Shown here piece by piece: positions 6,163 to 50,743 of a stretch of DNA of 64,000 nt. This stretch comes from an uncultured virus (IMG/VR IMGVR_UViG_3300013121_000030) (Duplodnaviria; Heunggongvirae; Uroviricota; Caudoviricetes). The first letter of the stretch is position 1; every line of letters starts with the position of its first letter. Location: positions 170,245-234,244 of IMG/VR virus record IMGVR_UViG_3300013121_000030, one strand, 5' to 3'. The translations under genes were made by a program, and so were the position numbers. The notes below the pieces were generated by a model. It was not told the origin of the DNA and did not search any database. It was given only the letters and a program-made list of their open reading frames with translations.

Positions 6163-6855
6163 ATGGCAGTCACGCACATCACTTTTACCGGAGTGGATGG
6201 AACCGTTTCAGGGTCTGACCTTTTTCAGTGGGCCAAACGGTTGCCTTGCTCACCATTTCAGGTGGAGCTGGGGTTTCTCTTCTCCTTGACCCGAGAGGGG
6301 TCAAGTCGATATCCGCAGATTGACCGCATTCCGTTCTTCTTGGAGATTGGCATTGACATTGGAGTTCGTACTGCGGTGCATGTGTGTGGGGAGGCTGCAC
6401 GGTTGTTGGCTTTCGAGGGAATCCTCCACCCAAGACTCTCTCCTCTCGTAGACTTGTGTGATCGAGTCCAAATTAACGTGGACTGGGAAGGGAGGGATCT
6501 GGAGAAGGGATTGGAGGTGATGAAGGGGCACCCCACAATAGGGTGGATTCTCCAGAGCCGTGATGCGGAGAAATTTCCAACTCCGCCAATTCCCAATTTG
6601 TTCTACCTCTTTGATGCTTCTGGGGGTAGGGGCAAGGAACCCGTGGCATGGCCTCCATGCCCAAACGATCAGTGGGTCGGGTACGCAGGGGGGTTGGGCC
6701 CTGGGCGGGTTGGGCCTCTCTTGAAGGAATTGGAGCAGAAGTCTCCTGAGGGGAAGTTTTGGGTGGATATGGAGAGTTCCCTTTTTGAGGATGGTAAGTT
6801 TGAGTTAAGTCGATGCACGGAGGTGCTCCATGAGGCCAACAAATTGATTTTTTGA
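6163..6855 (+). CDS. TrpF-like (phosphoribosylanthranilate isomerase-like) TIM-barrel protein
   Basis: ITFTGVD, LFDASGGRG, GYAGGLGP and WVDMESSL motifs. Confidence 0.65.
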   Translation: MAVTHITFTGVDGTVSGSDLFQWAKRLPCSPFQVELGFLFSLTREGSSRYPQIDRIPFFLEIGIDIGVRTAVHVCGEAARLLAFEGILHPRLSPLVDLCDRVQINVDWEGRDLEKGLEVMKGHPTIGWILQSRDAEKFPTPPIPNLFYLFDASGGRGKEPVAWPPCPNDQWVGYAGGLGPGRVGPLLKELEQKSPEGKFWVDMESSLFEDGKFELSRCTEVLHEANKLIF

Positions 6856-7650: not shown

Positions 7651-8862
7651 GTGGTTCTAGTACCACCCACTCGATATGGAGGTCTGGGGGCCGGTCCTGG
7701 TTGGGTCCGGCGATACGAAGCCCAGACCTCCATTCCTTTGTCTGGGTCCAAGTCGATCCTCATCGATCCCGTTCTTGGATCCCCCTTCGTTTTTCGTATC
7801 GTCCCTCCTGAAGTGCTTGTGGAAGCAATCTCGGGTGGAGCTGCAGCACGTGCAGGAAATATCTTCGATCGCCTCCTGGCAGATCAGCGACAAGCTGTCC
7901 TGGATGGGATTCCAGCAGGCACCGCATTGACAGACCAGGAGCAGACCCTCCTGGGAACGAGAGTCCCAAACTCTCCCCAGGGAGTGGTGATTGCGTCTGC
8001 GCTGCGTGCAACGAATAATTTCGAGAGGACCAAACAACGCCAAAACAAGGCGAGGCAGCTTGTCCCCCGGCGTGGGGATGACAGTGATGTCCCCTTGACG
8101 GATCCGTTGGTGGGTGGAGATGGGAAGAGATTCTCCCCTCAGCGAGACCGATCCTCCACAGCCAATCAGCTCGCGGTCGCGGACACCAAGCAATCCCGGG
8201 GCATCATGGGACAGCTCATTGCGTTGGCGTCGACCCCACCCCTGACGTTGCTCATCAATCCTCAAAGTCTCACTGTCACCTACACGAAGAAGCAGTCCTA
8301 TCAGGATCGGACGAGGACGAACTACCTCTTCCAGAGTTGGGGTGAGGATCAGCCCAAACTCTCTGTGCAGGGGAGGATAGGAGCCTTTGTCGCAGGTTCC
8401 GTGGCGGCCTCTGTGGATGCCTCAGGGCAGAGAGTCCTGAGCACAGAGGCAGCTTCGGGGGTCCAATTTGCCACGAAGAGGGATTCAGGGGCGTTCCAGA
8501 ACCTCATGAACCTGATGACGGTGTACCGCAACAATGCCTACATCTATGACCTTGTGGGGAGGTCCGAGGCCCACTGGTGGATTGGGAGCATTCAGATCGA
8601 ATACGACCAATACATCTACCAGGGTCAATTTGATTCGTTCACGTACTCTTACAGCGACGATCGGCAGGGCGGCGGTCTGGAATTTGGGTTCGAGTTCACC
8701 GTGTCTGCCATGTACGACACATGCCAGGATGTGAGTGTCGTTCCAGTGGGGAGCAACCAGCAAGCCTCTCCCCTCCCAGTGGGGGAAGCTCCTGCGGTCT
8801 ACTCTGGAGAAGCCGAAGGCGGGGAAGGAGGACTTCTCCTCAACCCCGCCTTCCGTCGATGA
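7651..8862 (+). CDS. Probable baseplate/tail-tube-initiator-like structural protein
   Basis: LLINPQSLTVTY...QSWGEDQPKLSVQG...YQGQFDSFTYS...FEFTV pattern typical of tube-fold phage proteins. Confidence 0.5.
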   Translation: MVLVPPTRYGGLGAGPGWVRRYEAQTSIPLSGSKSILIDPVLGSPFVFRIVPPEVLVEAISGGAAARAGNIFDRLLADQRQAVLDGIPAGTALTDQEQTLLGTRVPNSPQGVVIASALRATNNFERTKQRQNKARQLVPRRGDDSDVPLTDPLVGGDGKRFSPQRDRSSTANQLAVADTKQSRGIMGQLIALASTPPLTLLINPQSLTVTYTKKQSYQDRTRTNYLFQSWGEDQPKLSVQGRIGAFVAGSVAASVDASGQRVLSTEAASGVQFATKRDSGAFQNLMNLMTVYRNNAYIYDLVGRSEAHWWIGSIQIEYDQYIYQGQFDSFTYSYSDDRQGGGLEFGFEFTVSAMYDTCQDVSVVPVGSNQQASPLPVGEAPAVYSGEAEGGEGGLLLNPAFRR

Positions 8863-8863
8863 C

Positions 8864-9241
8864 TCAGAGTCCGAGCGCCGCAATCTCCTCCGGGGTGAGC
8901 TTGGAGAGCGCCCTCGCCCGGCACTCCATCTTCTTGTGGGCCTTGAAATCTTCTCCGTAACGAAAGTCGGGGAGGCAGGAGCTCGGGTTGACAGCGATGG
9001 CGCGGTCCCCAAAGGTGAGGACGAGAAAAGTCTGCTCCTCAACAACTCCAGGGCGACCCATGACTCCAAGGCCAGTCGCCGCGATATCCGCAACAGCCCT
9101 GGTTACGCTGGTGTATCGAGGGATGAGGCTTCCTCGTCCCTCAGTCTTGTCGCTGTCCTCAAACACCACAAACCTGGTTGCGAGTGTCACCGTAGGGTCG
9201 TGGTCGGAAGTGATGAGTTCTTTAAGAGTCAGAATGTCCAT
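8864..9241 (-). CDS. Hypothetical protein
   Basis: Promoter motif at 9261-9289 and GAGGA RBS upstream. Confidence 0.65.
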   Translation of the reverse strand: MDILTLKELITSDHDPTVTLATRFVVFEDSDKTEGRGSLIPRYTSVTRAVADIAATGLGVMGRPGVVEEQTFLVLTFGDRAIAVNPSSCLPDFRYGEDFKAHKKMECRARALSKLTPEEIAALGL

Positions 9242-9296: not shown

Positions 9297-10169
9297 GTGA
9301 AGAAAATCTCCCCACGGGGACGGATACACTCCTGGGGTACACAAGGCGTGTACCACAAGGCTACGATATCCAGGGGGATTCCGGGAACTCTCGGGAAGGT
9401 GCGGGAGGAACTGGAGGAGGCAGAAGATGCGGTGGAGCAGGGTTCACACATTCTTCTCGCGGTGGAGTTGTCGGACATCTTCTTGGCGTTGCGCCAAGTC
9501 GCGCGTGGCTACGGATGGACTCAAGAAGATCTGTCTTCAATGGCGGACATCACGGAACGAGTCTTCGAGTCGGGGCATCGTGGTGGTTTACCGCTTTCGG
9601 CGCACCACCAGCTCCCGAATCCAGGGCGATGTCGAGAGATCGTGGCGCTTTTGAGCGCCATGGATTTTGGGGCGAAGAGGTGGAAGACCTTCGGCACGGG
9701 ATACGCGGTGGCGAGGTTTGGCGAGCATCACAAGCTCCACATCTGGCACCCTGAGTTCGCAGATTCGCACACAGACTTTGGGGGGATTCACAGCCATGCC
9801 TACCACTTGGAGAGCACTGTGCTCCATGGGGCCATGAGGACTCGAATTTGGGGGAAGGATCCTTCGGGCCCTCCAGAACATTGGAAGTTGTGCTGTGGAA
9901 GTGGGGAAGAGTTCGTGGGTGCCGTGGTGAGGGCAGAGTTCGAGGTGGGGGAGGGGTATACCTATGCTCAGACGCAGGGATCATTTCATGATGTGGTGGG
10001 GCCGATTCAGGCAGTGACCTGGGTGTGCAAGAACAGCAAGGATGGTGAGGCATGGTTCATCCACAAGGGTCGGCCAAATCCGTATCTCAATCCGCGGGAC
10101 CTCACACGCCAACAGGAAGCTGTGGCGAGGGAAATGTGGGGGAAGGCCCTCGTTCGTTGGTCGACTTGA
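9297..10169 (+). CDS. MazG/HisE-like all-alpha NTP pyrophosphatase fused to a cupin-like domain
   Basis: KVREELEEAEDA...VELSDI (ExxE...ExxD), then IHSHAYHLESTVLHG...FH. Confidence 0.6.
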   Translation: MKKISPRGRIHSWGTQGVYHKATISRGIPGTLGKVREELEEAEDAVEQGSHILLAVELSDIFLALRQVARGYGWTQEDLSSMADITERVFESGHRGGLPLSAHHQLPNPGRCREIVALLSAMDFGAKRWKTFGTGYAVARFGEHHKLHIWHPEFADSHTDFGGIHSHAYHLESTVLHGAMRTRIWGKDPSGPPEHWKLCCGSGEEFVGAVVRAEFEVGEGYTYAQTQGSFHDVVGPIQAVTWVCKNSKDGEAWFIHKGRPNPYLNPRDLTRQQEAVAREMWGKALVRWST

Positions 10170-10699
10170 CAATCGACTGGACCCTTGCAGGAGAGGCGAT
10201 TCGGTTCTACCAGTCCAAAGGTTACGTCCACGTTTGGACCCCATGGATTGTTTCTCGCCGCTACATCGACGCTACACTCCCCGTGGGAGTAGATCCTTTT
10301 CGCTGCGGATATGGATGGCTCGTAGGGTCCGCAGAGCAAGGATTCCTTGCAATGGCTCCCCATCTGAAGAAAGGGCAGCGCTATGTGTCCGCGGGTCCGT
10401 GCTTCCGACCAGAACATGACCCGTATCAGCTCAAGTGGCCATACTTCTTCAAAGTGGAGCTTTTTTCATTTTGCAACGTAGCCCAGCAATTTGTTGACGA
10501 CGCTAGGGAGTTCATGGAGAGTCGCCTCCCCATCCAAGTCGAAAAAACCTCCGCCGGAACGGACTTGATGTGTGGCGGCATCGAATTGGGATCGTATGGG
10601 AGCCGTCAATCGCCCGAGTTGGGCGATTGGAGTTATGGGACAGGACTCGCACTCCCTAGGTTTTCGATCGCCCAAAGAGTCTACGGACGACTCTCTTGA
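10166..10699 (+). CDS. Minimal class II aminoacyl-tRNA synthetase-like catalytic domain
   Basis: Motif 1 FYQSKGYVHVWTP, motif 2 GPCFRPE...YFFKVELF, motif 3 GTGLALPR, IELGS; TTG start overlaps the upstream stop. Confidence 0.65.
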   Translation: MTIDWTLAGEAIRFYQSKGYVHVWTPWIVSRRYIDATLPVGVDPFRCGYGWLVGSAEQGFLAMAPHLKKGQRYVSAGPCFRPEHDPYQLKWPYFFKVELFSFCNVAQQFVDDAREFMESRLPIQVEKTSAGTDLMCGGIELGSYGSRQSPELGDWSYGTGLALPRFSIAQRVYGRLS

Positions 10700-10993
10700 C
10701 CCTCTCCCAGGGAGTTTCCCAGGGGAACTCCTGGGCCAATTTCAGTTGAGCATTGTGGAGTTCTTGGCATTGGAGTCGCTGATAATCCCGCATGGCCATG
10801 CGTTGCTGGTGGTCCCGCTCCGACCTTGCATATCCGACCAGAAAGTGCAGAACCCCAGGGATTATTTCGTAGTCCTCCCATGAGGATCCGGGAGGAACGA
10901 TGGTATTGAAGTAGGGCTCAAAAGAAGAGAAGTCCGGGAGGTTCCGGACTTCTTGGACAGTTTGCGGTTCCCTCATAAGAGGGATACCCAGGG

Positions 10994-11773
10994 TCACTCG
11001 ATGGGGGCCTGGTCCTTCAGCTTGTTCAGGACGGGACCCATCCTGGACACGATTGTCTGGAGCTGGTCTGTGGCCTCTTTCAACTGGTCCGACAAGGTTC
11101 CGCTGAGGAGTGTCATGAGAGCGTCATCCTCGTAGGCTTCCGAAGCACGCTCAAAGGATTGGGACTCGACGGCTCGGAGGAACGTCTCCATGGCCTTTCC
11201 AGCCCCCTGGACTTCAGAGGTGATGTCGGAGATCCTGGATGTAAGATTCTTCCAAGCTTCGCGGAGGGGCTTTCGGAGCGTCTTGGCTCGTGCAGCGGCA
11301 CCTGCCTGGGCGGCGCGGAAACTCATGTACTGCTGGGTGATCCGTTGGAGGTCGGGGAGGAAGACAGGATTCGTCTGGAGAAGCCCCCAGAGAACCTCAA
11401 TGTCCGAGGAAGCCTTCTGGAAGTCATCTTTCCCTGTGAGGACAACGTTTTGGTAGGGGTGGGCAGCTGAGGTGAGATCCGAATAGAGCTGTGCTTCGCC
11501 AAAGGTCAGCTCATCGCGCATGGCTTCCGCAGCCGCAATCAGCTCCTCCTTTTTGGACTGAATGGTATCCAAGAAGTCTGCGAGTTCTTCCTCATCCTCC
11601 ACCTCCTGGAAGAGATATTCGAGGTTCGTGAAGTACGGACCGACGAGATCCACCAACTTCCAGAAACGAGCGTCGGCAAGATCCGCTGCAACCTTCAGCT
11701 CTTGGCGGAGGAGCCGAGCAAAGGTAGGGTCTGAAGAAGCGAGGCGATAAGCTTGGTGTGCGATCCGGTTCAT
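10994..11773 (-). CDS. Hypothetical helical protein
   Basis: 259 aa ORF. Confidence 0.6.
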   Translation of the reverse strand: MNRIAHQAYRLASSDPTFARLLRQELKVAADLADARFWKLVDLVGPYFTNLEYLFQEVEDEEELADFLDTIQSKKEELIAAAEAMRDELTFGEAQLYSDLTSAAHPYQNVVLTGKDDFQKASSDIEVLWGLLQTNPVFLPDLQRITQQYMSFRAAQAGAAARAKTLRKPLREAWKNLTSRISDITSEVQGAGKAMETFLRAVESQSFERASEAYEDDALMTLLSGTLSDQLKEATDQLQTIVSRMGPVLNKLKDQAPIE

Positions 11774-12105
11774 CTCGAACTTACGACGAGATAAACGGAA
11801 AAGCGACTGCCACAGATGTTGGGTGCAGCTCCTCGAAAATCCTTCGGAGAATATTTACAAAACGGTCTTCCTCGTCCTCTCGGACTTTCTGGTGTACGAA
11901 TTGTGTCCCTTCTCCGAGGACCTTCCTGTAAGCGTCTCGAATTCTATTCTGCTCACGGGCACGAAGTTCAGGCGCAAAGGCGCAGGCTCGGGCCTGGAGG
12001 AGGAGAAGAAATTGAAGCTCGATGGCCTCGAAGGAAGATCCCCACATTTTTGGGGTTGAGAAGATGGAGAAGATGGATTCATCCGCCCAATCCCGAATCG
12101 TTTTC

Positions 12106-12912
12106 TCATCCATGTTTCTGGGTCCACCGCGTGAAGAGGTCGGCGATCTCAAAGATTCGGCGGACGGACTTGTCCGCCGTGGGAAGATCCGTGATGTCCG
12201 CCTTGCATTCCAGGTCAATTGCAGGAACCTTTAGGGTGTCCTCCACCCAGAGGGGCAGGGGCCCCAGGAGGCGGGGCTGTGCCAGCGAGTAGTGGCCGTC
12301 TTCCTTACGGATGTAGTAGCCGTGCAGCACAACGTGGAGCCACTCCTGGTACACGAACCCCACATCGAAGGGGGTCGACAGACCATCCTCCTCGAAAATG
12401 GAGGCTGCCAGATCCCCAGAGTGGGCACAATGGGTGCCCGCCAGAATCCCCTCCGCGTGCATCGAGATGACCCCCGCGATCTCCTCCTGGAAGGCAATCT
12501 CCAAGATGTCAGCCTGGATTCGGCGGCAGAGGTCCACCATCTCGGGATGCCGGAGGGCACCTCGCCAGAGGCGAAGATTCTCAGGCTGAGCCTTCGCTTC
12601 CATGGCGGAAGAGAGGAAGGCGTGGTTCATGTTCCCTTCGGCATCAATGCCTCCAGGGTCTGGGTTGATGTGGCGAACCACCCAGAAGGGAGGATGGTTG
12701 GCCGGAACCACTGGCCCATCCTGGCCTTCGGGCCAAGGACCTGACTGCGGCCCCGACTTGAAGGACGGACCAAAGCACAACCCCCTCACCAGTTCGTGGA
12801 CGGCCGTCTCCGCAGCCCACTCCGCCACGTGGATCCCCGAGACGAGGATGATGGCCGAAGCCTTCTGGAGGTTGCCGCGGCCCGGATAACGAGTCCACCG
12901 AAGGTTCGGCAT
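12106..12912 (-). CDS. Hypothetical protein (leaderless start)
   Basis: ATG 12912 lies 6 nt after the -10 of promoter 12919-12947. Confidence 0.6.
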   Translation of the reverse strand: MPNLRWTRYPGRGNLQKASAIILVSGIHVAEWAAETAVHELVRGLCFGPSFKSGPQSGPWPEGQDGPVVPANHPPFWVVRHINPDPGGIDAEGNMNHAFLSSAMEAKAQPENLRLWRGALRHPEMVDLCRRIQADILEIAFQEEIAGVISMHAEGILAGTHCAHSGDLAASIFEEDGLSTPFDVGFVYQEWLHVVLHGYYIRKEDGHYSLAQPRLLGPLPLWVEDTLKVPAIDLECKADITDLPTADKSVRRIFEIADLFTRWTQKHG

Positions 12913-12918
12913 GGATGA

Positions 12919-12988
12919 AATGTAGCACGACAACGCTCATCTTACACATGAGAAAGTTGGTGTAACATCTGCCTACATGTGCTACACT
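12919..12988. promoter_or_regulatory. Back-to-back pair of phage promoter motifs
   Basis: Minus copy 12919-12947 and plus copy 12960-12988, each with ATG 6 nt downstream. Confidence 0.75.
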
Positions 12989-13276
12989 GTCTCCATGCTC
13001 TTCAGCATTGTGAATCTTCTGGTCCAGGTCTCCTTGGTGGGCCTTCTTGTCCTGGCGTTTCTCCAGCCCTCGCTCCTCATGGCGGGGTTGCTTGGGGCCG
13101 CGATCGTGTGTGATCGCGTCTTTCGCGCCGGGTTCAGGTGTCCCCAGGGGCCACGATGCCGCTGAAGACAGCGGGCATGGCAAAGGGGATCAGAACGACC
13201 ACCCAGGACCACTCCACGAAGCCCAGCAGCTTGGCGACAATGACCGCAATTCCAATCACAGCCCACATGGCAAGCC

Positions 13277-13882
13277 TCACACGCGGACCTGGGGTCCAGT
13301 GTTGGTCTGGTTGACGGACTCGTACCACTCTTCCCACCCAGGGAGTAGAGAGTAGAGGACATCCACTTCGGGGAGCGAGAACCCCGAAGCACGACAGGTA
13401 TCAATAATCTGGCGGGCCCGCATTAGACAGACGGAGGCTCGCCGAAGAATCGAATCGACACGGAGTTGGAGGAAGGTGGACTGGACATTTCGGAAGGAGA
13501 CGTCACACTTCTTCCGAAGTTCGGGGTCTTGGAGTGCCTTCTCCAGCTCTTCCTGGCAGGCGGCTCGCTCGGATCGGAGATGATCCACCAGAGCCTTCAC
13601 AGTGAGGTTTCGACTCTCCTCGAAGGAGAGTTCAGGGCCATCATCTCGGATGGTGTCCTCCTCCAGATTTGCTCCACCCACCTCAAACTTTCGCCCCTCC
13701 GCAAGGAAGGGCTTCCCCAGACCTGGGGCGCGAGTCACACCCACGATCGGGCCCTCAACGCGCCATGCGCGCTGTCCCATGGACACGACCTGAAGGGGTC
13801 CGCAGAGGTAGGACCCCCACGAGGGGGAGCTGAGGACCGCAAAACGGCCCTGAACCCGTGCGATTGCATCAGTCTTCCTCAT
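13277..13882 (-). CDS. Hypothetical protein (leaderless start)
   Basis: ATG 13882 lies 6 nt after the promoter -10. Confidence 0.55.
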   Translation of the reverse strand: MRKTDAIARVQGRFAVLSSPSWGSYLCGPLQVVSMGQRAWRVEGPIVGVTRAPGLGKPFLAEGRKFEVGGANLEEDTIRDDGPELSFEESRNLTVKALVDHLRSERAACQEELEKALQDPELRKKCDVSFRNVQSTFLQLRVDSILRRASVCLMRARQIIDTCRASGFSLPEVDVLYSLLPGWEEWYESVNQTNTGPQVRV

Positions 13883-13888
13883 AACCCA

Positions 13889-13969
13889 GGTGTAGCACGT
13901 CACTCCCTGGATTACACAACGAAAATATTCTACGATGGGGGTGTAACTTAGGCTCTGCCGTGCTACACA
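13889..13969. promoter_or_regulatory. Back-to-back pair of phage promoter motifs
   Basis: Minus copy 13889-13917 and plus copy 13941-13969. Confidence 0.75.
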
Positions 13970-13975
13970 TGAGAC

Positions 13976-14800
13976 ATGCGTCCTGACATGCACAAGGTTC
14001 TGACGGAGCGTCCGCGTGAGCATCGTCGTAAGGGGGAAGGGTCTTTCTTCCATGAGATTCGGCCCGCTCGTCGTGGGCCTCAGGTTCGGGACATGGAGGA
14101 GGCAGAGGACCTGCCCTCCTCTCCCTCGGGTGAGGGGATGAGGCGTGCAGCCTCAGAGGTGCTGAGCTACGACCGGAAGACCTTCTCGGACCTCCTGGGC
14201 CCTCTTCGTCGGTTCCTCGCCTCTCAGGCGGGGCGTCCCTGGGACAAGGTCCAGAGCGAGATCTCGAAGCACCTCCCGCGCCGTGGCAACACGGTCCAGG
14301 CTCACATCTGGCAGCACATCGACCACCTCGTTGAGACTCGGTGTGTTCGAGAGGGTCACCTGATCCTCGACTCCAAGGGGGAGGTCATCGTGGACCTCCA
14401 TGAAGGTTCGTTCAGGCGGTGGTTCGCTGCCTTCTACGTCGCCCAAGATGGGATCCTGAGGAAGGTGCCCATGTCGAAGAAGGCGAAGCCTGCGCAGGAG
14501 GACGACCCCAAGGCCCTCAAGTTCCACTGGCTCACGCGCCCCAAGGATGGGCGTGCCAAGGCGGCTGTTCGGTGGGAGGGGATCTGGTATCAGGTGGACC
14601 TGGCGGATAAGCCCAAGGTTCCGAGTCTGGATTGCATCTTCTCGGACATCTTCTTCCCCTTCCGCTTCCATGCGTCCGAACTCAATCGGTCCACGTCCTG
14701 GGAGCAGGCTCGTACTCCCTGGGGTGCGGTGGGGATGTACGCCGTGTCCAAGACCCAGATGTCCAAGAAGGGTATTCGAGACCTTCCCAAGGCTGCATGA
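13976..14800 (+). CDS. Hypothetical protein, translationally coupled to the serpin
   Basis: Leaderless ATG; ATGA overlap with 14797. Confidence 0.65.
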   Translation: MRPDMHKVLTERPREHRRKGEGSFFHEIRPARRGPQVRDMEEAEDLPSSPSGEGMRRAASEVLSYDRKTFSDLLGPLRRFLASQAGRPWDKVQSEISKHLPRRGNTVQAHIWQHIDHLVETRCVREGHLILDSKGEVIVDLHEGSFRRWFAAFYVAQDGILRKVPMSKKAKPAQEDDPKALKFHWLTRPKDGRAKAAVRWEGIWYQVDLADKPKVPSLDCIFSDIFFPFRFHASELNRSTSWEQARTPWGAVGMYAVSKTQMSKKGIRDLPKAA

Positions 14801-15828
14801 ACAACACAAACAACACATTCGCAATCAACCTCTTTGGTCTCCTCTCTCCAGAGGAGACCACGGTGTTCTCTCCAATCTCCGTCCGAACGGCTCTCCACAT
14901 GGTCTACATGGGGTCAGCCAACGCCACCGCTGTGGATCTTCGCAAGGCATTGGTCCTCTTTCCAGGAGAGCGTCCGTGGGTTCCTTCGAGGTTCCGACAC
15001 CTGCGGTTGGACGTCGCCAACTGTGTGTGGGTCAAGGACCCCGATCCTACTCTCTCGACCTATCGAGAGACGCTGCTCCGGGAATTTGGAGCTGATGTGG
15101 GGGTTCTTCCAAAGGAAGCTTCCTCAGCCGCCGCTGTGGTCAACGACTGGGTTGCGGAGAAGACAGGGGGGAAGATCCCTCAGATTGCGGATGCCTCCTC
15201 CTTCCAGGGGGTGGGCATCGTCCTCACCAATGCAATCTACTTCCGCGGGGAGTGGGAGAATCCGTTTCCTCGCCATTACACCGCACCCCGTGTCTTCCAC
15301 GGTTCTGCCAAGGATTCGACGGTGCCCTTCATGGATGGCACCATGAAGGTGGGGATTCATCAGGATTCCACGATGACAGTCGTGAGTATTCCATTCAGGG
15401 ACTATGAAGCCTTCCTGACCATCATCATGCCGTCCAATGTGGGGGACATCCCCAAGGCGTTAGGGTGGCTAGACACCCCTCTTCGGGTTCAGGAAGTTGC
15501 TGTGGTTCTTCCCAAGATTCGGCTCGATGGGTCAGCGGAGCTGACTGGCCCTCTCACCGAAATGGGCGCGGGGATCCTCTTCCAGCCAGCGGCCAATCTC
15601 TCAGGGATGACGGGGGATCTCTCGTGTCGTGTCTCCTCTGTGCTCCACCGGGCTGTTCTGGAGTTGGATGAGGATGGGGCGACCGCCGCTGCTGCAACTG
15701 CGGTTCTCATTACGCGGGGGATTCCCATCATGGATCCACCCAAGGTGGTGGTGGATCGGCCCTTTGTGTTCGCCCTGGTGGACGAGGTGGGGACGATTCT
15801 TTTCGCTGGCAGGGTGACAGATCTCTGA
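14797..15828 (+). CDS. Serpin (serine protease inhibitor family)
   Basis: VFSPISV, VNDWVAEKTGGKI, LTNAIYFRGEWENPF, hinge LDEDGATAAAATA and DRPFVF...ILFAGRV signature. Confidence 0.92.
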   Translation: MNNTNNTFAINLFGLLSPEETTVFSPISVRTALHMVYMGSANATAVDLRKALVLFPGERPWVPSRFRHLRLDVANCVWVKDPDPTLSTYRETLLREFGADVGVLPKEASSAAAVVNDWVAEKTGGKIPQIADASSFQGVGIVLTNAIYFRGEWENPFPRHYTAPRVFHGSAKDSTVPFMDGTMKVGIHQDSTMTVVSIPFRDYEAFLTIIMPSNVGDIPKALGWLDTPLRVQEVAVVLPKIRLDGSAELTGPLTEMGAGILFQPAANLSGMTGDLSCRVSSVLHRAVLELDEDGATAAAATAVLITRGIPIMDPPKVVVDRPFVFALVDEVGTILFAGRVTDL

Positions 15829-16388
15829 TGAGCCCTGTTCCCTCGTGGGTGGTGATTTTGGGGCGAAAAGTAGCTCATTGGTGCCGCTCCATGGATTCAG
15901 GTTAAACGGAATGCCTCCACGGGGCGTTGAGGTTCTCAACGTGGAAAGGTGGCAAATTTGGAGACGGAGAAGACAATGCTGACTGACGTTCAGATCGACA
16001 CGACTCTCAAGACTACCTTCGCCAACGATGAGGTCGCCAAGCGCTATCTCGACGCGGCTCAGCGTCGGACTCTCCTAATGATGTCCACCGTCCCCCCACG
16101 GATCCTTCTGGGGGTCTGCGATCATTTCAGGATGTAGCCCCGATAAGTGACACACATGGAACAATACGACTTCGAGTCCTTCTTCGAGGAAGAAAACCGG
16201 ATGAATCGGGAGATGTCCTATCGCCTGTCCAACTCTCAACTCCGAATGTGGAAGCGAGGCGATGAGGAACAATTCACGATCATCGCGGATCTTTCGGAGT
16301 GGGCTCGCTCCAGAGGAGCAAAAGTCCTTGAGATTCGGTGTCCACAGTCCAATTCCGTCCTGGATACCGTCCCTCTTTGGAGCTGAGA

Positions 16389-17435
16389 ATGTCGACCTAC
16401 TTGAAGATCGCGGCCATGTTGATGGGGGGAGCTGCCGGGGATGCTGTGGGTTCCCCGTGTGAGGGAGACTCGCAGGATGATTGTCTCCGATACATCACCA
16501 CTCACTTTGAGAAGTGGTCCTTTTTTGGAGTGCATCGGGGACCATGGCCCTTTGGCCAAATAACGGACGACACCCAATTGACTCTTGGTCTTGTCCGTTC
16601 ATTGCTTCGATGTGGTGGATGGTCCCCTGAAGACTTTGCCCATGAACTGGTGGATCTCTTCTCCAGAGATCGCGTGATTGGATTTGGGTCAGGAACCCGA
16701 GAGGCTGTGTTGAGGCTTGAGGAAGGGACTCCGTGGTCTTCTGCTGGCAACATGGGGGACGGGAATGGTGGAGCGATGCGAGCTGCTCCCATTGGAGTGG
16801 TGGCTCCGGACCTGGCAACATGTTGTCGGTGGGCTCTTGAGCAGGCCCACATAACTCATGCCTCGCCAACAGCCCGCACTGCCTCTGCAGTTGTGGCTCT
16901 GGCTGTGGCCCTCGCACTGGAGGACACAGGCGAGTTTCGCAAGCACCCGGTACGTCTTCTCTTGAGGATTCAAGAGATTTTGGATGTTGAAGTCCCGCGG
17001 AATGCACAAGGAGCTTGGCCTGGGAAATTGGAGGAGATGGCGAACCTTCTTGCCCCCATCGAAGGTCCCTTTGGAGGTGAGGTTGGGGTGGATGCGTTTC
17101 GGGCCACAGGTGAGTGGCTTTTGTCCCTCCAATCCCCCTCAGATTGGGAGGGGATCTCGCCCTTCGCTATGACCTCAGTGCTGTGGTCTTTGGCTTGCGT
17201 TGTAACGGCTACGATTTGGGATGGGGCAGTTCCATTGGCGATGTCAATGGGTGGAGATGTGGACTCCACAGCGGCGATCGCGGGATCGGTCGTTGGAGCC
17301 CTAACTGGGGAAACCCCTCCCAAGGAGATCGAGAATCTGCTTGTAGACTATGGGGACCCAATCCCTTGGGCGAAAATCGCCCAAGATCTCTTCAATCTGA
17401 GGACGAGGCTTCGAGCCTCAAAGGAGTTGTCGTGA
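16389..17435 (+). CDS. ADP-ribosylglycohydrolase (DraG/ARH family)
   Basis: GDAVG, TDDTQ, GNGGAMR, THA and GGDVDSTAAIAG motifs. Confidence 0.9.
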   Translation: MSTYLKIAAMLMGGAAGDAVGSPCEGDSQDDCLRYITTHFEKWSFFGVHRGPWPFGQITDDTQLTLGLVRSLLRCGGWSPEDFAHELVDLFSRDRVIGFGSGTREAVLRLEEGTPWSSAGNMGDGNGGAMRAAPIGVVAPDLATCCRWALEQAHITHASPTARTASAVVALAVALALEDTGEFRKHPVRLLLRIQEILDVEVPRNAQGAWPGKLEEMANLLAPIEGPFGGEVGVDAFRATGEWLLSLQSPSDWEGISPFAMTSVLWSLACVVTATIWDGAVPLAMSMGGDVDSTAAIAGSVVGALTGETPPKEIENLLVDYGDPIPWAKIAQDLFNLRTRLRASKELS

Positions 17436-17485
17436 GAACCATTTTCATCCTCCTCGCCCTTGCCGGTCGTTTCGTTGCATTGGCC

Positions 17486-18343
17486 TCAGTCTTGGCTGGT
17501 CTCTTGGTCCTCATTGGAGCCGAGATTGGCCTCTCTGGGTGGCAATGCATTTTGACCTGGGCCACAGGCATCGTGATCGCCGTCACTGCCGAACTCATCT
17601 GCTCTGTAGAGTGAGAGTTCGTGGAGAATGTCTCGAATCCAGGCGGTGTACAGCGACTTGATTTCGTTGCTCTGCTGGGCGAGACGGAGCCAAGCGTCAA
17701 AATCCAGAGGGATCCGGAAAGACGGATTGTTGTCTTCGAGGGCAATCTTGTCGAAGATCTTGAAAAGGTTGGAGGCGATCGTTCCCTCGCGGTCAATCTG
17801 TTTCGCTGCCTTGGCAGCGAGGGTTTTCTGCTGCTGGCTTAGAGCCGCCTTCCATGGCCTAATCTTCGGCTGGAACTTCTGGCGAATCTCCCCCATCCTC
17901 TTGGCGACGGGAGACTCTCCAGCCATCTTGACTCGGCCTGTCCTCTTGTACTCGTCCAGTCGGCTCATCCATGTGCTTTTGGGGAGCATGGGAGGCCGAG
18001 AGATGGTCACCTCGGCTTTCATGGATCCGAGGGAAAGTCTGATCTCTCGTAACGAATTGTTACGGAGGCCCATTGCAAAGATCAAGTCGTTGGTCTCACG
18101 AAGGCATTCCTGTGAGAGGCGATCCATCGCATCCTCGGCCTCCATCTGGACAGCGGCACAGATGGTAGCCAGCATATCGATCTGATCTTTCACCTTGGAT
18201 AAGGGTGAAAGATCAGAGTCGAATACTTCAATGATTTTTTTGAGAATGGCGTCTGAGGGGCTTGATGATCCCCCCTCGTTAATGTCGAGGCTCAGGACGG
18301 CTTGGTTCTCATCGAAATCGAGAGAAATGTGGGGCGATCTCAT
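17486..18343 (-). CDS. Hypothetical protein
   Basis: 285 aa ORF. Confidence 0.5.
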   Translation of the reverse strand: MRSPHISLDFDENQAVLSLDINEGGSSSPSDAILKKIIEVFDSDLSPLSKVKDQIDMLATICAAVQMEAEDAMDRLSQECLRETNDLIFAMGLRNNSLREIRLSLGSMKAEVTISRPPMLPKSTWMSRLDEYKRTGRVKMAGESPVAKRMGEIRQKFQPKIRPWKAALSQQQKTLAAKAAKQIDREGTIASNLFKIFDKIALEDNNPSFRIPLDFDAWLRLAQQSNEIKSLYTAWIRDILHELSLYRADEFGSDGDHDACGPGQNALPPREANLGSNEDQETSQD

Positions 18344-18654
18344 ATTTGGATGCGCCCTATGAGAATTCTATTGGGTCAGAGTCCCAGGAGGTTCTTCCAC
18401 CAGTTGGGGTCGGAAACCCCTCCACAGTTTGTGCAGTCGGGAGGCGGAGGCGGCGGGGAGCACGTTGTGGTTTCCTCGCAAACCAAGGGAGTCAGCCGGC
18501 ACCGCTTGATGTACAGGTTTTTGACCGTGCTCTATACGAAGACACCGGAATATTCGTATGGAGGATTCCAACCCTGAGGGTCAGCGTGGGCAGTGTGGGA
18601 AGAGAGAAGGGCTCCCAGTGTTACTGGTCGTTAACTTTGGGTATGTAAGACAAC

Positions 18655-19773
18655 ATGACCCTCAAAGAGCGGCTGATTGTGTTGGTTGGATGTTCTCCTC
18701 GCACCTCACAACAAGAGTCAAGGCTTAAAACCTTGACACCTGACCACACCGACATGGTGTTGGGCTTTTTGGACGGAAATAAGTCGCAAGCACAACTTGC
18801 CAAAGAATTGAAGGTTGTGCCTTCCACAATCGGGCACAGGCTGGAGAATGTCCTCAAAATTCTGGAAGAGACTTCCCTGGAAGTGCCCGCCCCATACCCC
18901 CCTTATGAGGGGAAGAAGCCCTGGACACCTCCACCTTGGTGGTTCGGAGAAGAAAAACCCGCAACAGGGGCGGGGAGTAAGCTGGTTGAGATATCTCCAA
19001 CAATCGCCAGCGATATGTTGCGGTACAACCGCAAAAACCGCCCAATGAAGAAATCACATTGGGAAAGACTTGCGCAGGCCATGTTGGATGGTGCGTTTGT
19101 TACAACTCCAGATGCGATCGCCTTCGATGTTTCTTCTAACCTGGTGAATGGTCAACATCGACTCCAAGCCCTCATTGCCGCCAATTCGTCCCTGAAATTT
19201 ATTGTTAGCTGGGGTCATAACATGGATGCCTTCTGTTTTACCGATCGAGGGGCGAAAAGAACTGCGGGGGACGTTGCCAGCCTGGATGGCTTCAGGGATG
19301 GGAAAAAATGTAGGGCGATTGCCGCCCAGGCTATGGTTGTTTTGGATGCCTGGAATGGTGGAAGTGCGGATTTTTCGAGATCTCGTTTGCTTGGGGACCA
19401 TGATGTCCGCAATTGGATGTTGGCGCACCGAGAGGATCTGGAACATAGCTATGAGGCGACTCGTCATTTTTTCCCTTCAGCAATCTTCGGGGCTGTACAC
19501 TTCGCCGTTGGCCTTGCTAACCAGCCAAGGCTAGAGGACGCTTTTCGCAGAGCCAAGGAAGGAACCGCACGTGACAAGGATGATCCCGCATACCATATGC
19601 GGCAGCTCAACGAGATTAAGGACCGAGGAAATGAGTGGGTCTTCAAACTGTTGAAGCTTGTTTCGCGGGAGCTTGAAGATTCCAAGGTCAAAGCTCTGAG
19701 GAAACAAAAAAAAGAGAAGCTTCCTGGACCCCCAGCCGGGTGGAGAAAAGACGCGGCTCCGGGGAAGTTGTAG
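18655..19773 (+). CDS. HTH plus ParB/Srx-like domain protein
   Basis: SQAQLAKELKVVPSTIGHRL HTH; NRKNRP...IAFD...LVNGQHRLQALI. Confidence 0.7.
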   Translation: MTLKERLIVLVGCSPRTSQQESRLKTLTPDHTDMVLGFLDGNKSQAQLAKELKVVPSTIGHRLENVLKILEETSLEVPAPYPPYEGKKPWTPPPWWFGEEKPATGAGSKLVEISPTIASDMLRYNRKNRPMKKSHWERLAQAMLDGAFVTTPDAIAFDVSSNLVNGQHRLQALIAANSSLKFIVSWGHNMDAFCFTDRGAKRTAGDVASLDGFRDGKKCRAIAAQAMVVLDAWNGGSADFSRSRLLGDHDVRNWMLAHREDLEHSYEATRHFFPSAIFGAVHFAVGLANQPRLEDAFRRAKEGTARDKDDPAYHMRQLNEIKDRGNEWVFKLLKLVSRELEDSKVKALRKQKKEKLPGPPAGWRKDAAPGKL

Positions 19774-19784
19774 ATCCGGCCTCC

Positions 19785-20633
19785 TCACCCAAGGAAGGAC
19801 CTGGGGGACAGAATCCCTCGGCCAACGCTGGGACCGAAGGAGCTGCGGACGCCGAAGCCGAAGCGGGGCTGTTGGAGACCGCGGATGAACTTCACGGTTC
19901 GGGCCTTGTATTCGGCGGCCTTGTCGACCTGGCCCTCAGCGTTCTGCTTCAGGGACTCGTACTGAGAGGACTTGTTGATGTCGAGGGAGATTCCCCCGAT
20001 GGAGTACGAGAACTCATCTGCGACCCAGTTGGTGGCGAGAGCGAACAGGGCATGGACGGCAGCCCCCCAAAGGATCCATGTGGACCAACCAGGCATTTGG
20101 GCACAGAGCTGGTCCAGGGTCTGGATGTTCATGGTGGAGGGAGGCATGGACATGAACCAGTTGAGGCTCATCTCCAAATAGGTCTCCAGCTCGTAGTCCT
20201 CCCAAATGTAGCCGAAAACTCGGTTGTAGCGGCCTACGACTCCTTCTTGCTCTGGGGGACGGAACTTATAATTGCGGTCGGGGGAGTTGGAGACGAGAAG
20301 ACCAGATCTCACAAGGAGGTATCGGGAGGGGTGGTCAACAGTTAGATCATATACAAAATGGTCCTTGGTGGATGTTCGGACCTCGACGGATCCCACCCCC
20401 CATGCCTCGTTTACTTGCTTAGCCTCAATTTTGAGGTCAAGGTCTACAAATATTTTGTGGTCGGGGGTCATTCGTGAAGACCCCACTGGGGTGGTGACCT
20501 CCACCATATCGTCGTCATTCGGAAACCGACGAACGGCGCCTATGCGGCGCCAGCACAGGTTTCCCTCTTCATCAATGGTTTTGACGGCCAGAGATCCCTC
20601 GTGGTAGGCTTGGCGGATTTTATCGGCAATCAT
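19785..20633 (-). CDS. Fractured gene, 3' part: 116-aa C-intein plus C-extein (probable virion protein)
   Basis: Block B TPDHKIF, block F VYDLTV, block G GLLVSN followed by Ser (SPDRNY). Confidence 0.8.
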   Translation of the reverse strand: MIADKIRQAYHEGSLAVKTIDEEGNLCWRRIGAVRRFPNDDDMVEVTTPVGSSRMTPDHKIFVDLDLKIEAKQVNEAWGVGSVEVRTSTKDHFVYDLTVDHPSRYLLVRSGLLVSNSPDRNYKFRPPEQEGVVGRYNRVFGYIWEDYELETYLEMSLNWFMSMPPSTMNIQTLDQLCAQMPGWSTWILWGAAVHALFALATNWVADEFSYSIGGISLDINKSSQYESLKQNAEGQVDKAAEYKARTVKFIRGLQQPRFGFGVRSSFGPSVGRGILSPRSFLG

Positions 20634-24790: not shown

Positions 24791-25228
24791 TTACACGGGC
24801 ATGGAGATAGTATCTGCGGTCCAGTCCACAAACCCCCACTTGTAGAGGTCTGCGACGACACTCTCTGGCCACTTCCGCGCATCGCAGGGACCCTTCTCCA
24901 CCGCGGAGAGGATCTCTTGATGCTGGGGGGAGAGATCCTCCACTGACTTCGTGGGTGCGTAGTCAGGGATGTGGCGCTCATCCATCAGCTCCTTGAAGGT
25001 TCCCAGGCGGACACGGGGGGATTCTCCCTCAAAGAGGAAGCCAAGAAGCGTCTGGCCAGGACGGCCCACCGCATGGAAGGCCCACCCTGCAGGGCAGAGG
25101 TTGGAGGCATCCCACTTCCAGCACGTGGTGGCCTTGGGGAAGTAGGGAGCGGTGAAATCGCTCATCTCCACGAGTTGGAGACGAAGTTCCAGGGGGAAGT
25201 TCTCGAATGATGTGATATGGAGAGGCAT
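24791..25228 (-). CDS. Hypothetical protein
   Basis: Promoter motif 25236-25264 with ATG 7 nt downstream. Confidence 0.55.
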   Translation of the reverse strand: MPLHITSFENFPLELRLQLVEMSDFTAPYFPKATTCWKWDASNLCPAGWAFHAVGRPGQTLLGFLFEGESPRVRLGTFKELMDERHIPDYAPTKSVEDLSPQHQEILSAVEKGPCDARKWPESVVADLYKWGFVDWTADTISMPV

Positions 25229-25295
25229 CCTCACCAGGATAGCACGCAGTTCCCAAAGTTACACTGACATTCTCGTTGATCAAGCGTCCCATTTT

Positions 25296-50181: not shown

Positions 50182-50737
50182 CGCACCCATCCAATGTATT
50201 TCGGAGCGAGAGGCTATCCGAAAGCGTTCCGCGTTGTACGTCGGGACAGGAGAGAAGGCTCTTCTCAAGCTTCTTGGGGCGAGCCTCTACTTTTGGTCGG
50301 AGGGATATCCCACCACCACTTCAAGAGTGGTGGTGTCGTACGGATCTGATGGGAGATTTGGTGTTGATGAGGATGGGGAGGGGATTTCTCCAGAGGAACA
50401 TCCCCTCTTGAAGTGCTCTATCCTGGAGTCACTGCTCACAAAAATGGGTGGCGGTTCGTGGAACAACCTTCCGATTGTGAACGCCTTGAGTTCTGTCTGC
50501 TCGCTCCAGTCCCATTGGCACGGTGAAGTGTGGGAAATCTCCAGCCGTCAGGGGGTCCTTGAATCCCCGCCTCAGTATGTCGGGAAGACGGACCGGACAG
50601 GAACGGTTCTCGGGTTCATCCCGGACCCTGAGATCTTCGGCGACATTCGAGTAAGTGGTCTGGCCCTACGGCAATATTTGGACGAAATCCGGGCTGGGCT
50701 TCAGCCTGGGGATTCCATCCTCCTCAAGAATTCGTGA
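50171..50737 (+). CDS. Stand-alone GyrB/ParE GHKL-like fragment within the cas operon
   Basis: EAIRKRSALYVG, VDEDGEGI, IVNALS, TGTVLGFIPDPEIFG; lacks the ExxDN motif. Confidence 0.75.
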   Translation: MTHDAPIQCISEREAIRKRSALYVGTGEKALLKLLGASLYFWSEGYPTTTSRVVVSYGSDGRFGVDEDGEGISPEEHPLLKCSILESLLTKMGGGSWNNLPIVNALSSVCSLQSHWHGEVWEISSRQGVLESPPQYVGKTDRTGTVLGFIPDPEIFGDIRVSGLALRQYLDEIRAGLQPGDSILLKNS

Positions 50738-50743
50738 CGTGAC

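What the first reader, a model, noticed from the sequence alone, without database searches (positions are those of the whole stretch)
14797..15828. Phage-encoded serpin with an inhibitory-type hinge
Seen: a full serpin signature with no signal peptide, hinge EDGATAAAATA and reactive loop VLITR-GIP. P1 is Arg or Gly depending on loop length. It is co-transcribed from the phage promoter at 13941. Known: poxvirus serpins such as CrmA block host caspases; serpins are uncommon in phages. Inference: it may inhibit defence proteases (caspase-like, CHAT or trypsin-like activators of gasdermin-type cell death), which are abundant in myxobacteria.
Basis: partly seen in the sequence, partly recalled or inferred. 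Interest (0 to 1): 0.7.

Follow-up and report, generated by a model that had tools for sequence, protein, structure and literature searches.

The report
Cytoplasmic serpin in a jumbo phage
An uncultivated 234-kb phage carries a complete, compact protease-trapping serpin with no export signal and an arginine bait, so it most likely disables a host protease inside the infected cell, much as poxvirus serpins do, but neither its target nor its purpose has been shown.

Summary
Window 14797-15828 (+) encodes a 343-residue protein that matches the Pfam serpin model end to end (E 2e-70). It folds confidently as a native serpin with an exposed reactive loop. It keeps the shutter and breach residues and an inhibitory-type hinge (EDGATAAAATA), and it has no signal peptide.

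The contig is a phage: I found a large terminase and a portal, and it is an IMG/VR record rated 90% complete.

The gene overlaps the stop of the upstream gene (ATGA). That gene follows a promoter-like motif present 41 times in the genome against 0.05 expected.

Arg307 is the likeliest P1 residue. It aligns with the P1 Asp of poxvirus xVAD serpins and with Arg/Lys in many homologues, which gives a CrmA-like 16-residue spacing. Gly308 is the canonical 17th residue.

The protein is an orphan lineage, at most 39% identical to anything in 15 billion proteins, yet its codon usage fits the phage. Serpins are rare in phages: 2 weak hits in 50,697 records and a few unrelated large viral contigs. I found no paper describing one.

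The phage encodes no serpin-sensitive protease, so a host target is likely. The anti-defence reading is plausible but untested, and the myxobacterial host is unsupported. Other notes in this scan report short serpins in giant phages on other DNA.

The parts
13941..13969 (+). Promoter-like motif GTGTAAC-N12-GTGCTACACA. It reads as a sigma-70-type extended -10 (TGnTACACA) with an unusual upstream box. The ATG of the first gene lies 6 nt after the -10 hexamer, so the mRNA is leaderless or nearly so.
   Evidence: Sequence. The pattern [AG]TGTA[AT]-N13-GTG[CT]TA occurs 41 times in the 234-kb genome against a mean of 0.05 in 20 Markov shuffles, and an ATG usually follows about 10 nt later. Promoter function is inferred.
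13893..13917 (-). Divergent copy of the same motif. It drives the minus-strand gene that starts at 13882 (MRKTDAIA...).
13976..14800 (+). First gene of the transcription unit: a 274-aa protein of unknown function from a widespread family in viruses and bacteria. Its stop overlaps the serpin start.
   Evidence: About 120 homologues and no Pfam family. The N-terminus MRxDM is nearly invariant, which fixes the start at 13976. The AF2 model has pLDDT 70, with only weak winged-helix-like matches for residues 64-166 (Z at most 6). In 2 of 4 bacterial contexts the homologue sits directly upstream of RtcB.
14797..15828 (+). Serpin gene (343 aa, protein P0001).
   Evidence: Pfam PF00079 E 2.3e-70. AF2 pLDDT 86.4, pTM 0.85. 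Foldseek TM 0.83-0.86 to native serpins. 52 of 64 highly conserved serpin columns are kept.
15670..15702 (+). Hinge, Glu292 to Ala302 (EDGATAAAATA).
   Evidence: The published inhibitory consensus is ExGTEAAAA (PMC8233489).
15703..15744 (+). Exposed reactive-centre loop VLITRGIPIMDPPK. The Arg307 codon is at 15715-15717 and the Gly308 codon at 15718-15720.
   Evidence: Residues 298-311 have pLDDT below 50, as expected for a free loop. Arg307 aligns with the P1 Asp of poxvirus xVAD serpins and with Arg/Lys of other serpins.
15976..16137 (+). Small ORF (53 aa) downstream, same strand, function unknown.
   Evidence: No PADLOC hit.
16156..16386 (+). Small ORF (76 aa) downstream, same strand, function unknown.
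   Evidence: No PADLOC hit.
16389..17435 (+). ADP-ribosylglycohydrolase gene (DraG/Tri1-like), probably the last gene of the same unit.
   Evidence: Pfam PF03747 E 4.2e-53. NCBIfam DraG E 5e-21 and Tri1 E 9e-14, both below the family cut-offs. No further + strand copy of the promoter motif occurs before window 36544.

Best explanation
The gene encodes a working, cytoplasmic, suicide-substrate serpin. It is made inside the infected bacterium from a recurrent phage promoter, as the second, translationally coupled gene of an accessory operon. A host protease that cuts after arginine attacks the exposed loop, most likely at Arg307-Gly308. That protease would be a trypsin-fold serine protease or an Arg-specific caspase-family cysteine protease. 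The cut loop then snaps into beta-sheet A and the protease is dragged along and inactivated as a covalent complex. The benefit to the phage is protection of the infection from host proteolysis. The most attractive version is a block on a protease-triggered suicide or defence pathway, the phage counterpart of poxvirus CrmA. Shown here: serpin identity, fold, hinge, the conserved mechanism residues, lack of an export signal, phage origin, operon layout and rarity. Inferred: inhibitory activity, P1 = Arg307, a host target and the anti-defence purpose. The confidence given is for the general statement, an inhibitory cytoplasmic serpin aimed at a host protease. The specific anti-defence version is about 0.3.
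For: The match to the serpin HMM is full length, and the native-state AF2 model is confident, with a disordered exposed loop and TM 0.83-0.86 to solved native serpins. The residues needed for the conformational trap are present: Ser25, Ser28, Trp153, His284, Glu292 and Gly294, plus four alanines at 297-300; 52 of 64 columns conserved at 85% or more are kept and most changes are conservative. The hinge fits the inhibitory consensus ExGTEAAAA (PMC8233489), with small uncharged residues at the two deviating positions. Arg307 shares an alignment column with the P1 Asp of poxvirus xVAD serpins and with Arg/Lys in L001, L018, L012, P0090, P0115 and P0168. Across 59 homologues the 16th residue from the hinge Glu is Arg or Lys in 17, while the 17th is mostly Thr/Ser/Ala/Gly, which looks like P1'. 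A 16-residue spacing is known for some serpins (PMC3534287). There is no leader peptide, unlike 45 of 59 nearest homologues. The phage has no S1, S8, C14, CHAT or C1 protease of its own, so the target should be host-encoded. Codon usage correlates with the phage genome at 0.80, the 95th percentile of its genes, so this is a long-resident, maintained gene. The promoter motif is absent from the terminase-portal block and marks accessory-gene regions, and the operon also holds an ADP-ribosylglycohydrolase. Bacterial defence systems that depend on trypsin-like or caspase-like proteases exist, and a phage protein that blocks one by another route is known (PMC10312443).
Against: No target protease is known, and the host is unknown. 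No biochemical data exist. The hinge departs from consensus at P14 (Ala for Thr) and P13 (Thr for Glu), and Asn at the conserved position 21 is Thr. By canonical counting P1 is Gly, which no common protease prefers. No PADLOC or PHROG family covers the gene, so it is not a recognised defence or phage family member. Neighbourhood evidence is weak: the translationally coupled upstream gene looks like a winged-helix protein whose bacterial homologues sit with the RNA ligase RtcB, not with proteases. The protein has no close relatives, so there is no conservation signal across related phages.
Confidence: 0.55

Rival explanations
1. The serpin is inhibitory, but its target is ordinary host proteolysis such as housekeeping or stress proteases that would degrade phage proteins. 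It would then be a general protective factor, as proposed for cytoplasmic prokaryotic serpins, rather than a counter-defence protein.
For: A published hypothesis holds that leaderless prokaryotic 'hub' serpins control cytoplasmic proteolysis (PMC8233489). No defence-related partner was found near the gene. The Arg/Lys or Leu/Ala pattern at the same loop position is common in bacterial serpins generally.
Against: From general knowledge, the main cytoplasmic proteases of bacteria (Lon, ClpP, FtsH, HslV) are not of the classes that serpins trap. From general knowledge, cytoplasmic S1, S8 and C14 proteases in bacteria are often conflict-associated. The gene sits among accessory genes with an ADP-ribosylglycohydrolase.
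Confidence: 0.2
2. The protein has the serpin fold but is not a protease trap. It would act as a chaperone, a binding protein or a cleavable decoy or sensor, like ovalbumin, Hsp47 or the hormone-carrying serpins.
For: The hinge deviates at P14 and P13, and the conserved Asn near strand 6B is replaced. The protein sits on a very long branch (1.44 changes per site). It lacks helix D.
Against: P15 Gly, P12-P9 Ala4 and P8 Thr are intact, and no bulky or charged residue sits in the inserting stretch. The shutter and breach residues are kept. From general knowledge, helix D is also missing in the active inhibitor CrmA. The same region is equally short in the pox xVAD-type serpins and several bacterial ones in my alignment.
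Confidence: 0.12
3. The serpin controls a protease of the phage itself, for example by timing the head-maturation protease.
For: The phage has a 969-aa protein with a weak head-maturation-protease match (phrog_18299, E 1.7e-7).
Against: From general knowledge, prohead proteases belong to folds that serpins are not known to trap, and those studied cleave after Glu or small residues rather than Arg. The serpin lies about 120 kb from the head module and under a different promoter class. No S1, S8, C14, CHAT or C1 protease is encoded by the phage.
Confidence: 0.06
4. The serpin acts outside the cell after lysis, shielding virions or neighbouring hosts from environmental proteases in wastewater.
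For: Most bacterial relatives are exported (45 of 59 carry a leader), so the ancestral role was probably extracellular.
Against: This copy has lost, or never had, a leader. A one-shot stoichiometric inhibitor released at lysis would be diluted at once (inference).
Confidence: 0.05

Closest known systems
Poxvirus CrmA / SPI-2-type serpins (cowpox CrmA, PDB 1F0C and 1M93; a 'minimal serpin' that inhibits caspase-1 and caspase-8, PMC7863939)
   Same: Both are virus-encoded with no signal peptide, are compact (343 aa against 315-334 aa for the pox xVAD-type serpins fetched here) and have a short region where helix D would be. The candidate P1 sits in the same alignment column, giving 16 rather than 17 residues from the hinge Glu. 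The proposed logic is also the same: a viral inhibitor of a host cell-death protease.
   Different: P1 is Arg, not Asp, so the specificity would be trypsin- or metacaspase-like, not caspase-like. Identity to the pox proteins is only 23-25% and the tree shows no supported kinship. The host is a bacterium. Activity is untested.
Prokaryotic serpins (miropin PDB 5NCS, thermopin, tengpin, Tk-serpin, Pnserpin, siropins; groups S-U of PMC8233489)
   Same: Same family and hinge type. The nearest sequences are uncharacterised bacterial and metagenomic serpins at 31-39% identity. Miropin is among the top structural matches.
   Different: Most relatives are exported. This one is leaderless and phage-borne, is shorter than all 59 aligned homologues, and has no relative above 39% identity.
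Plant 'LR' serpins such as AtSerpin1 (inhibits metacaspase 9 and the papain-like RD21; PMC3534287)
   Same: Both are intracellular serpins with Arg at P1 followed by a small residue. AtSerpin1 is a precedent for a serpin restraining an Arg-specific caspase-family protease.
   Different: P2 is Thr here, not Leu. The lineage is different and no target is known.
CARD-only protein of Acinetobacter phage 133, which inhibits a bacterial gasdermin system run by trypsin-like proteases (PMC10312443)
   Same: It is a phage-encoded antagonist of a protease-dependent bacterial cell-death pathway, the role proposed for this serpin.
   Different: It works by interfering with CARD-CARD recruitment, not by trapping the protease, and its fold is unrelated. 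Its activity is shown experimentally, whereas the serpin's is not.
Serpins on other large uncultivated viral contigs (IMG/VR loci L001, L012, L018)
   Same: All are leaderless serpins of 337-385 aa with Arg or Lys in the same loop column. L012 lies in a 430-kb record with a large terminase, and L018 sits beside phage-type helicase genes.
   Different: Identity is only 25-30%. No flanking genes are shared apart from one unrelated ORF in L018, and the terminase is unrelated. These look like independent acquisitions.

Membership tests
Serpin superfamily (Pfam PF00079, MEROPS I4) | Full-length match to the family profile | tested here: met
   E 2.3e-70 and 238 bits against a cut-off of 27, with residues 4-342 on profile positions 2-369 of 370. 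Repeated on the genome, E 2.1e-71.
Serpin superfamily (Pfam PF00079, MEROPS I4) | Serpin fold with a central beta-sheet A and an exposed reactive-centre loop | tested here: met
   AF2 pLDDT 86.4 and pTM 0.85, with the loop at 298-311 unstructured. Foldseek E 1e-28 to 3e-31 and TM 0.83-0.86 to native serpins. Helix D is absent (residues 52-69 are coil).
Inhibitory serpins | Hinge consensus P17-P9 ExGTEAAAA, with small uncharged residues that can insert into sheet A | tested here: met
   The sequence is E-D-G-A-T-A-A-A-A. Glu, Gly and the four Ala are kept. P14 is Ala rather than Thr and P13 is Thr rather than Glu, and both are small and uncharged (consensus from PMC8233489).
Inhibitory serpins | Shutter and breach residues (alpha-1-antitrypsin Ser53, Ser56, Trp194, His334, Glu342) | tested here: met
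   The equivalents Ser25, Ser28, Trp153, His284 and Glu292 sit in columns conserved at 85% or more. The mapping to antitrypsin numbering is from my own knowledge.
Inhibitory serpins | Loop length of 17, rarely 16, residues from the hinge Glu to P1 | tested here: met
   Arg307 is the 16th and Gly308 the 17th residue. The counting rule and its exceptions are in PMC3534287.
Inhibitory serpins | Stressed-to-relaxed transition and an SDS-stable covalent complex with a protease | not testable with these tools
   This needs purified protein.
CrmA/SPI-2-type caspase-inhibiting viral serpins | Asp at P1 (xVAD motif) | tested here: not met
   Arg occupies the column that holds the Asp of the CVAD and LVAD motifs in L014, L016 and L009.
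CrmA/SPI-2-type caspase-inhibiting viral serpins | Specific sequence kinship with poxvirus serpins | tested here: inconclusive
   Identity is 23-25%. The FastTree topology places the protein near long viral branches without support, and the tool itself warns of long-branch attraction.
Phage anti-defence proteins | Shown to neutralise a defined host defence system | not testable with these tools
   Only indirect context is available: an accessory operon with an ADP-ribosylglycohydrolase, a recurrent non-structural promoter class and no phage target protease.
Known defence-system components (PADLOC) | Match to a defence-system protein model | tested here: not met
   No PADLOC family matched the serpin or its operon partners at E of 0.001 or better.

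The most novel reading that the evidence does not exclude
This would be a phage counterpart of poxvirus CrmA: an early, cytoplasmic serpin that covalently traps the Arg-specific protease which executes a bacterial abortive-infection or cell-death pathway. Candidates include the trypsin-like or caspase-family activators of gasdermins, CARD-linked proteases and CRISPR-associated caspase-like proteases. It would be the first anti-defence protein of a bacterial virus to work by suicide-substrate protease inhibition, and it would show that viruses of bacteria and of animals converged on the same inhibitor fold to block protease-driven host suicide.
Probability: 0.3. Interest if true: 0.8.

Novelty: new member of a known kind. 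Interest (0 to 1): 0.55.

Why it matters
Serpins are well-known weapons of poxviruses and other large eukaryotic viruses, but I found no paper describing one in a bacteriophage. Phrase searches returned nothing. A jumbo-phage comparative study and the 6,000-sequence serpin phylogeny do not mention phage serpins.

Protease-triggered cell death is now known to be a common bacterial defence. The phage countermeasures described so far act on signalling or recruitment, not on the protease itself.

A leaderless, Arg-baited serpin in a phage accessory operon gives a concrete protein to test against those systems. Because the complex is covalent, it could also be used to fish out the unknown host protease. 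The protein is also one of the shortest complete serpins and lacks helix D, which is useful for defining the minimal working fold.

Tried and rejected
- The serpin has no PHROG, NCBIfam or PADLOC family.
- Megablast of window 10000-20000 against 50,697 phage records found nothing.
- Both protein searches found no relative above 39% identity, so no orthologues in related phages could be used for conservation or synteny.
- The maximum-likelihood run of treekit did not finish in 300 s. The FastTree run left the query on an unresolved long branch, so I draw no donor or origin from it.
- Host inference from the phage's Cas7 gave only spirochaete relatives at 37-42% identity, too distant to name a host.
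- The upstream protein was folded and searched against 48,161 PDB chains. Only winged-helix-like matches with Z of 6 or less appeared, and no protease fold was listed.
- Searches of the phage genome for Trypsin, Trypsin_2, Peptidase_S8, Peptidase_C14, CHAT and Peptidase_C1 were all empty.
- A search of the phage proteome for the loop motif (LITR, xxTRG) found only the serpin and one unrelated LITR.
- Rfam found nothing in 12000-19000.
- Two papers on CrmA loop length and structure (PMC2253425, PMC2144729) are not held. CrmA's missing helix D and shorter loop are therefore quoted from my own knowledge, backed by the alignment to the pox xVAD-type serpins.
- IMG/VR locus L004 (504-kb contig) was first taken as phage-like. 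Its neighbour carries a TFIIB repeat and it groups with eukaryotic-virus serpins, so I do not count it as a phage.
- I sent no complex-prediction job, because there is no candidate partner protease and I do not claim the serpin binds its neighbour.
Full report
**What is there**

The ORF at window 14797-15828 (+) translates to 343 residues. Its ATG overlaps the stop of the upstream ORF 13976-14800 as ATGA. The public protein collection holds an identical 343-aa gene call from a 234,244-bp contig.

A longer reading from a TTG at 14632 would overlap the last 55 codons of the upstream gene. That gene's full length is conserved in homologues, so 14797 is the start.

Pfam's Serpin model matches end to end: E 2.3e-70, residues 4-342 on profile positions 2-369 of 370. 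The best solved relatives by sequence are conserpin and tick and insect serpins (E 4e-40 and weaker).

An AlphaFold2 model built on 60 sequences is confident (pLDDT 86.4, pTM 0.85). Only residues 298-311 are disordered, which is what an exposed reactive-centre loop of a native serpin should look like. Foldseek puts the model at TM 0.83-0.86 on native PAI-2, antithrombin, miropin, alpha-1-antitrypsin and others.

The model has no helix D: residues 52-69 are coil. In an alignment the same region is equally short in the pox xVAD-type serpins and in several compact bacterial and viral serpins.

**Is it built to inhibit?**

The hinge reads EDGATAAAATA (15670-15702), against the homologue consensus EEGTEAAAATA and the published inhibitory consensus ExGTEAAAA (PMC8233489).
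- Glu, Gly and all four alanines are kept.
- The two departures, Ala for Thr at P14 and Thr for Glu at P13, are small and uncharged.
- Of 64 alignment columns conserved at 85% or more among 60 serpins, the phage protein keeps 52. These include Ser25, Ser28, Trp153, His284 and Glu292, which by my own mapping are the shutter and breach residues of antitrypsin.
- Most of the 12 changes are conservative.

I therefore rate it a probable active inhibitor. The conformational trap itself cannot be tested here.

**Which residue is the bait?**

Counting from the hinge Glu292, Arg307 is residue 16 and Gly308 is residue 17. The canonical rule takes residue 17 as P1, with known exceptions at 16 (PMC3534287). 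Three observations favour Arg307:
- In the MAFFT alignment it shares a column with the Asp of the CVAD and LVAD motifs of three poxvirus-type serpins fetched from IMG/VR (L014, L016, L009). It also shares that column with Arg or Lys in L001, L018, L012, P0090, P0115 and P0168.
- Among 59 homologues, residue 16 is Arg or Lys in 17 and otherwise mostly Leu or Ala. Residue 17 is mostly Thr, Ser, Ala or Gly, the profile of a P1' position.
- Gly is a poor P1 for any common protease (general knowledge).

The likely site is therefore L-I-T-R | G-I-P-I. That would suit trypsin-fold serine proteases or Arg-specific caspase-family cysteine proteases. AtSerpin1, with Arg then a small residue, inhibits metacaspase 9 (PMC3534287).

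**Where does it act?**

Only seven residues precede the helix-A phenylalanine, and there is no hydrophobic segment. The 59 nearest homologues have a median of 36 residues there, and 45 carry a leader-like hydrophobic stretch by a crude window test. This agrees with the statement that most prokaryotic serpins have transport peptides (PMC8233489). The phage protein should stay in the cytoplasm.

**Is the contig a phage?**

Yes.
- The window is the last 64 kb of a single 234,244-bp contig.
- It is an IMG/VR virus record that CheckV rates 90% complete.
- I found a large terminase (phrog_2, E 7.7e-26), a portal (phrog_16240, E 2.3e-27) and a weak head-protease match in the 54-73 kb block.
- Earlier agents of this scan had described its tail sheath and tRNA array.

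**Expression context**

The motif at 13941 is GTGTAAC-N12-GTGCTACACA, with the ATG of the 274-aa gene six bases after the -10-like hexamer. The pattern [AG]TGTA[AT]-N13-GTG[CT]TA occurs 41 times in the genome against 0.05 in Markov shuffles. An ATG usually follows about 10 nt after GTGCTA.

It reads as a sigma-70-type extended -10 promoter giving leaderless mRNAs. That function is inferred. A mirror copy on the minus strand (13917-13893) drives the divergent gene. No copy lies in the terminase-portal block.

The next plus-strand copy after 13941 is at 36544. The unit therefore probably runs from 13976 through the serpin and two small ORFs to an ADP-ribosylglycohydrolase at 16389-17435 (Pfam E 4.2e-53).

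The serpin's synonymous codon usage correlates with the genome's at 0.80, the 95th percentile of comparable phage genes. It is neither an assembly chimera nor a fresh import.

**Relatives**

Nothing in 5.8 billion clustered proteins, or in a full HMMER pass over 1.84 billion representatives, exceeds 39% identity, although 34,430 representatives are recognisable serpins. A FastTree phylogeny leaves the protein on an unresolved branch of 1.44 changes per site, and the tool warns of long-branch attraction. I claim no donor.

Serpins are rare in phages:
- tblastn against 50,697 GenBank phage records gave two hits at 24-28% identity, both unannotated 'Bacteriophage sp.' contigs from human faeces.
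- All named BFVD structural matches with E below 0.001 are from eukaryotic viruses; several of these matches carry no name.
- A pattern-limited scan of 2.9 million IMG/VR contigs gave 26 loci, many of them poxviruses or giant-virus bins.

A few of those loci look like large phages and carry leaderless serpins with Arg or Lys in the same loop column:
- L012, in a 430-kb record with a terminase.
- L018, a fragment rated 4% complete, beside a phage-type helicase.
- L001, 136 kb.

They share no flanking genes with this phage apart from one unrelated ORF, and their terminase is unrelated. These are separate acquisitions. Other notes in this scan mention shorter 'miniature' serpins in giant phages on other DNA. 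This protein keeps its N-terminal helices, unlike the miniature serpins those notes describe.

**What could the target be?**

The phage genome has no match to Trypsin, Trypsin_2, subtilisin S8, caspase C14, CHAT or papain C1 models, while the control genomes rang. A host enzyme is therefore the likely target.

Bacterial gasdermin and CARD-containing defence systems are run by trypsin-like and caspase-like proteases. One phage protein that blocks such a system by CARD mimicry has been shown experimentally (PMC10312443). A serpin doing the same job by trapping the protease would be new, and it fits the data, but nothing here demonstrates it.

The neighbourhood gives only soft support. The ADP-ribosylglycohydrolase could reverse ADP-ribosylating toxins (inference).

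The coupled upstream gene belongs to a family of about 120 virus and bacterial proteins without a Pfam model. In two of four bacterial contexts its homologue sits directly upstream of the RNA ligase RtcB, once with a PrfH-like release factor. In two other contigs the serpin lies beside PF09414 RNA ligases. That may mean serpins travel in counter-defence or repair gene clusters, or it may be chance. This phage's own PF09414 ligase is 92 kb away.

**Host**

The phage's cas genes hit 'I-MYXAN' and I-B models only weakly. The nearest Cas7 proteins in a one-genome-per-species collection are from Spirochaetota at 37-42% identity. The host is unresolved.

**Verdict**

The protein is a new, very divergent, compact, cytoplasmic member of the serpin family, carried by a jumbo phage.
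- The general mechanism, trapping a host Arg-specific protease inside the infected cell, is the best-supported reading (about 0.55).
- The specific anti-defence purpose is attractive but unproven (about 0.3).
- The literature I could search contains no description of a phage serpin.

Noticed in passing
window 47983-53881 (+): The phage carries a type I CRISPR interference gene set. It comprises Cas3 with HD and helicase domains (Pfam and NCBIfam, E 7.5e-47), a 188-aa GHKL/GyrB-N-like ORF, a Cmx8-like large subunit (weak, E 4e-6), Cas7/DevR (E 3.4e-19) and Cas5/DevS (E 3e-13). An earlier follow-up on this genome stated that the phage has a CRISPR mini-array but no CRISPR protein genes, which this contradicts. 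The nearest Cas7 relatives in species genomes are Spirochaetota at 37-42% identity.
   Followed up: partly
window 13976-14800 (+); loci L032, L033, L038, L039: The gene coupled to the serpin belongs to an unnamed family of about 250-aa proteins from viruses and bacteria. It has a nearly invariant N-terminus MRxDMxKVxxERPR and invariant His110 and His114. In two of four bacterial contexts it sits directly upstream of RtcB, once followed by a PrfH-like release factor, which hints at an RNA-repair link. The AF2 model shows only a weak winged-helix-like match for residues 64-166.
   Followed up: partly
L001:4530-5738 and 8313-9065; L018:4432-5121: In two unrelated large viral contigs the leaderless serpin lies within about 1.3 kb of PF09414 RNA ligase genes: two in L001 and one in L018. 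This could be a counter-defence or repair cluster, or a coincidence.
   Followed up: no
whole genome; window copies at 5601, 5912, 9289, 12947, 12960, 13917, 13941, 24796, 25264, 36544, 37617, 39390, 43842, 54141, 54385, 55171: The promoter-like motif [AG]TGTA[AT]-N13-GTG[CT]TA occurs 41 times against 0.05 expected. It often appears in back-to-back divergent pairs (12947/12960 and 13917/13941), usually with an ATG about 10 nt downstream. Three copies (36544, 37617, 39390) precede RNA genes in the tRNA and Y-RNA region rather than ORFs.
   Followed up: partly
window 16389-17435 (+): An ADP-ribosylglycohydrolase (Pfam E 4.2e-53; DraG-like and Tri1-like below the NCBIfam cut-offs) sits in the same transcription unit as the serpin. 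It is a candidate eraser of ADP-ribosylation by host toxins.
   Followed up: no
window 891-3161 (-): A 756-aa protein made of YdcK-type beta-solenoid and bactofilin-like repeats, with strong matches to PHROGs of unknown function (phrog_7964, E 6.5e-98).
   Followed up: no
window 25152-26780 (+): An Eco57I / N6-adenine type DNA methyltransferase (phrog_1600, E 2.9e-71), possibly self-protection against restriction.
   Followed up: no
window 6163-6855 (+) and L018:1995-2717: Apart from the serpin, the only protein shared between this phage and any serpin-bearing IMG/VR locus is a 230-240-aa ORF without a Pfam family (28% identity, E 6.6e-18).
   Followed up: no
L004:4951-5958 (504-kb IMG/VR contig): The neighbour of a leaderless 336-aa serpin carries a TFIIB repeat, and another neighbour is collagen-like. 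This 'viral contig' is more likely a giant eukaryotic or archaeal virus than a phage.
   Followed up: no
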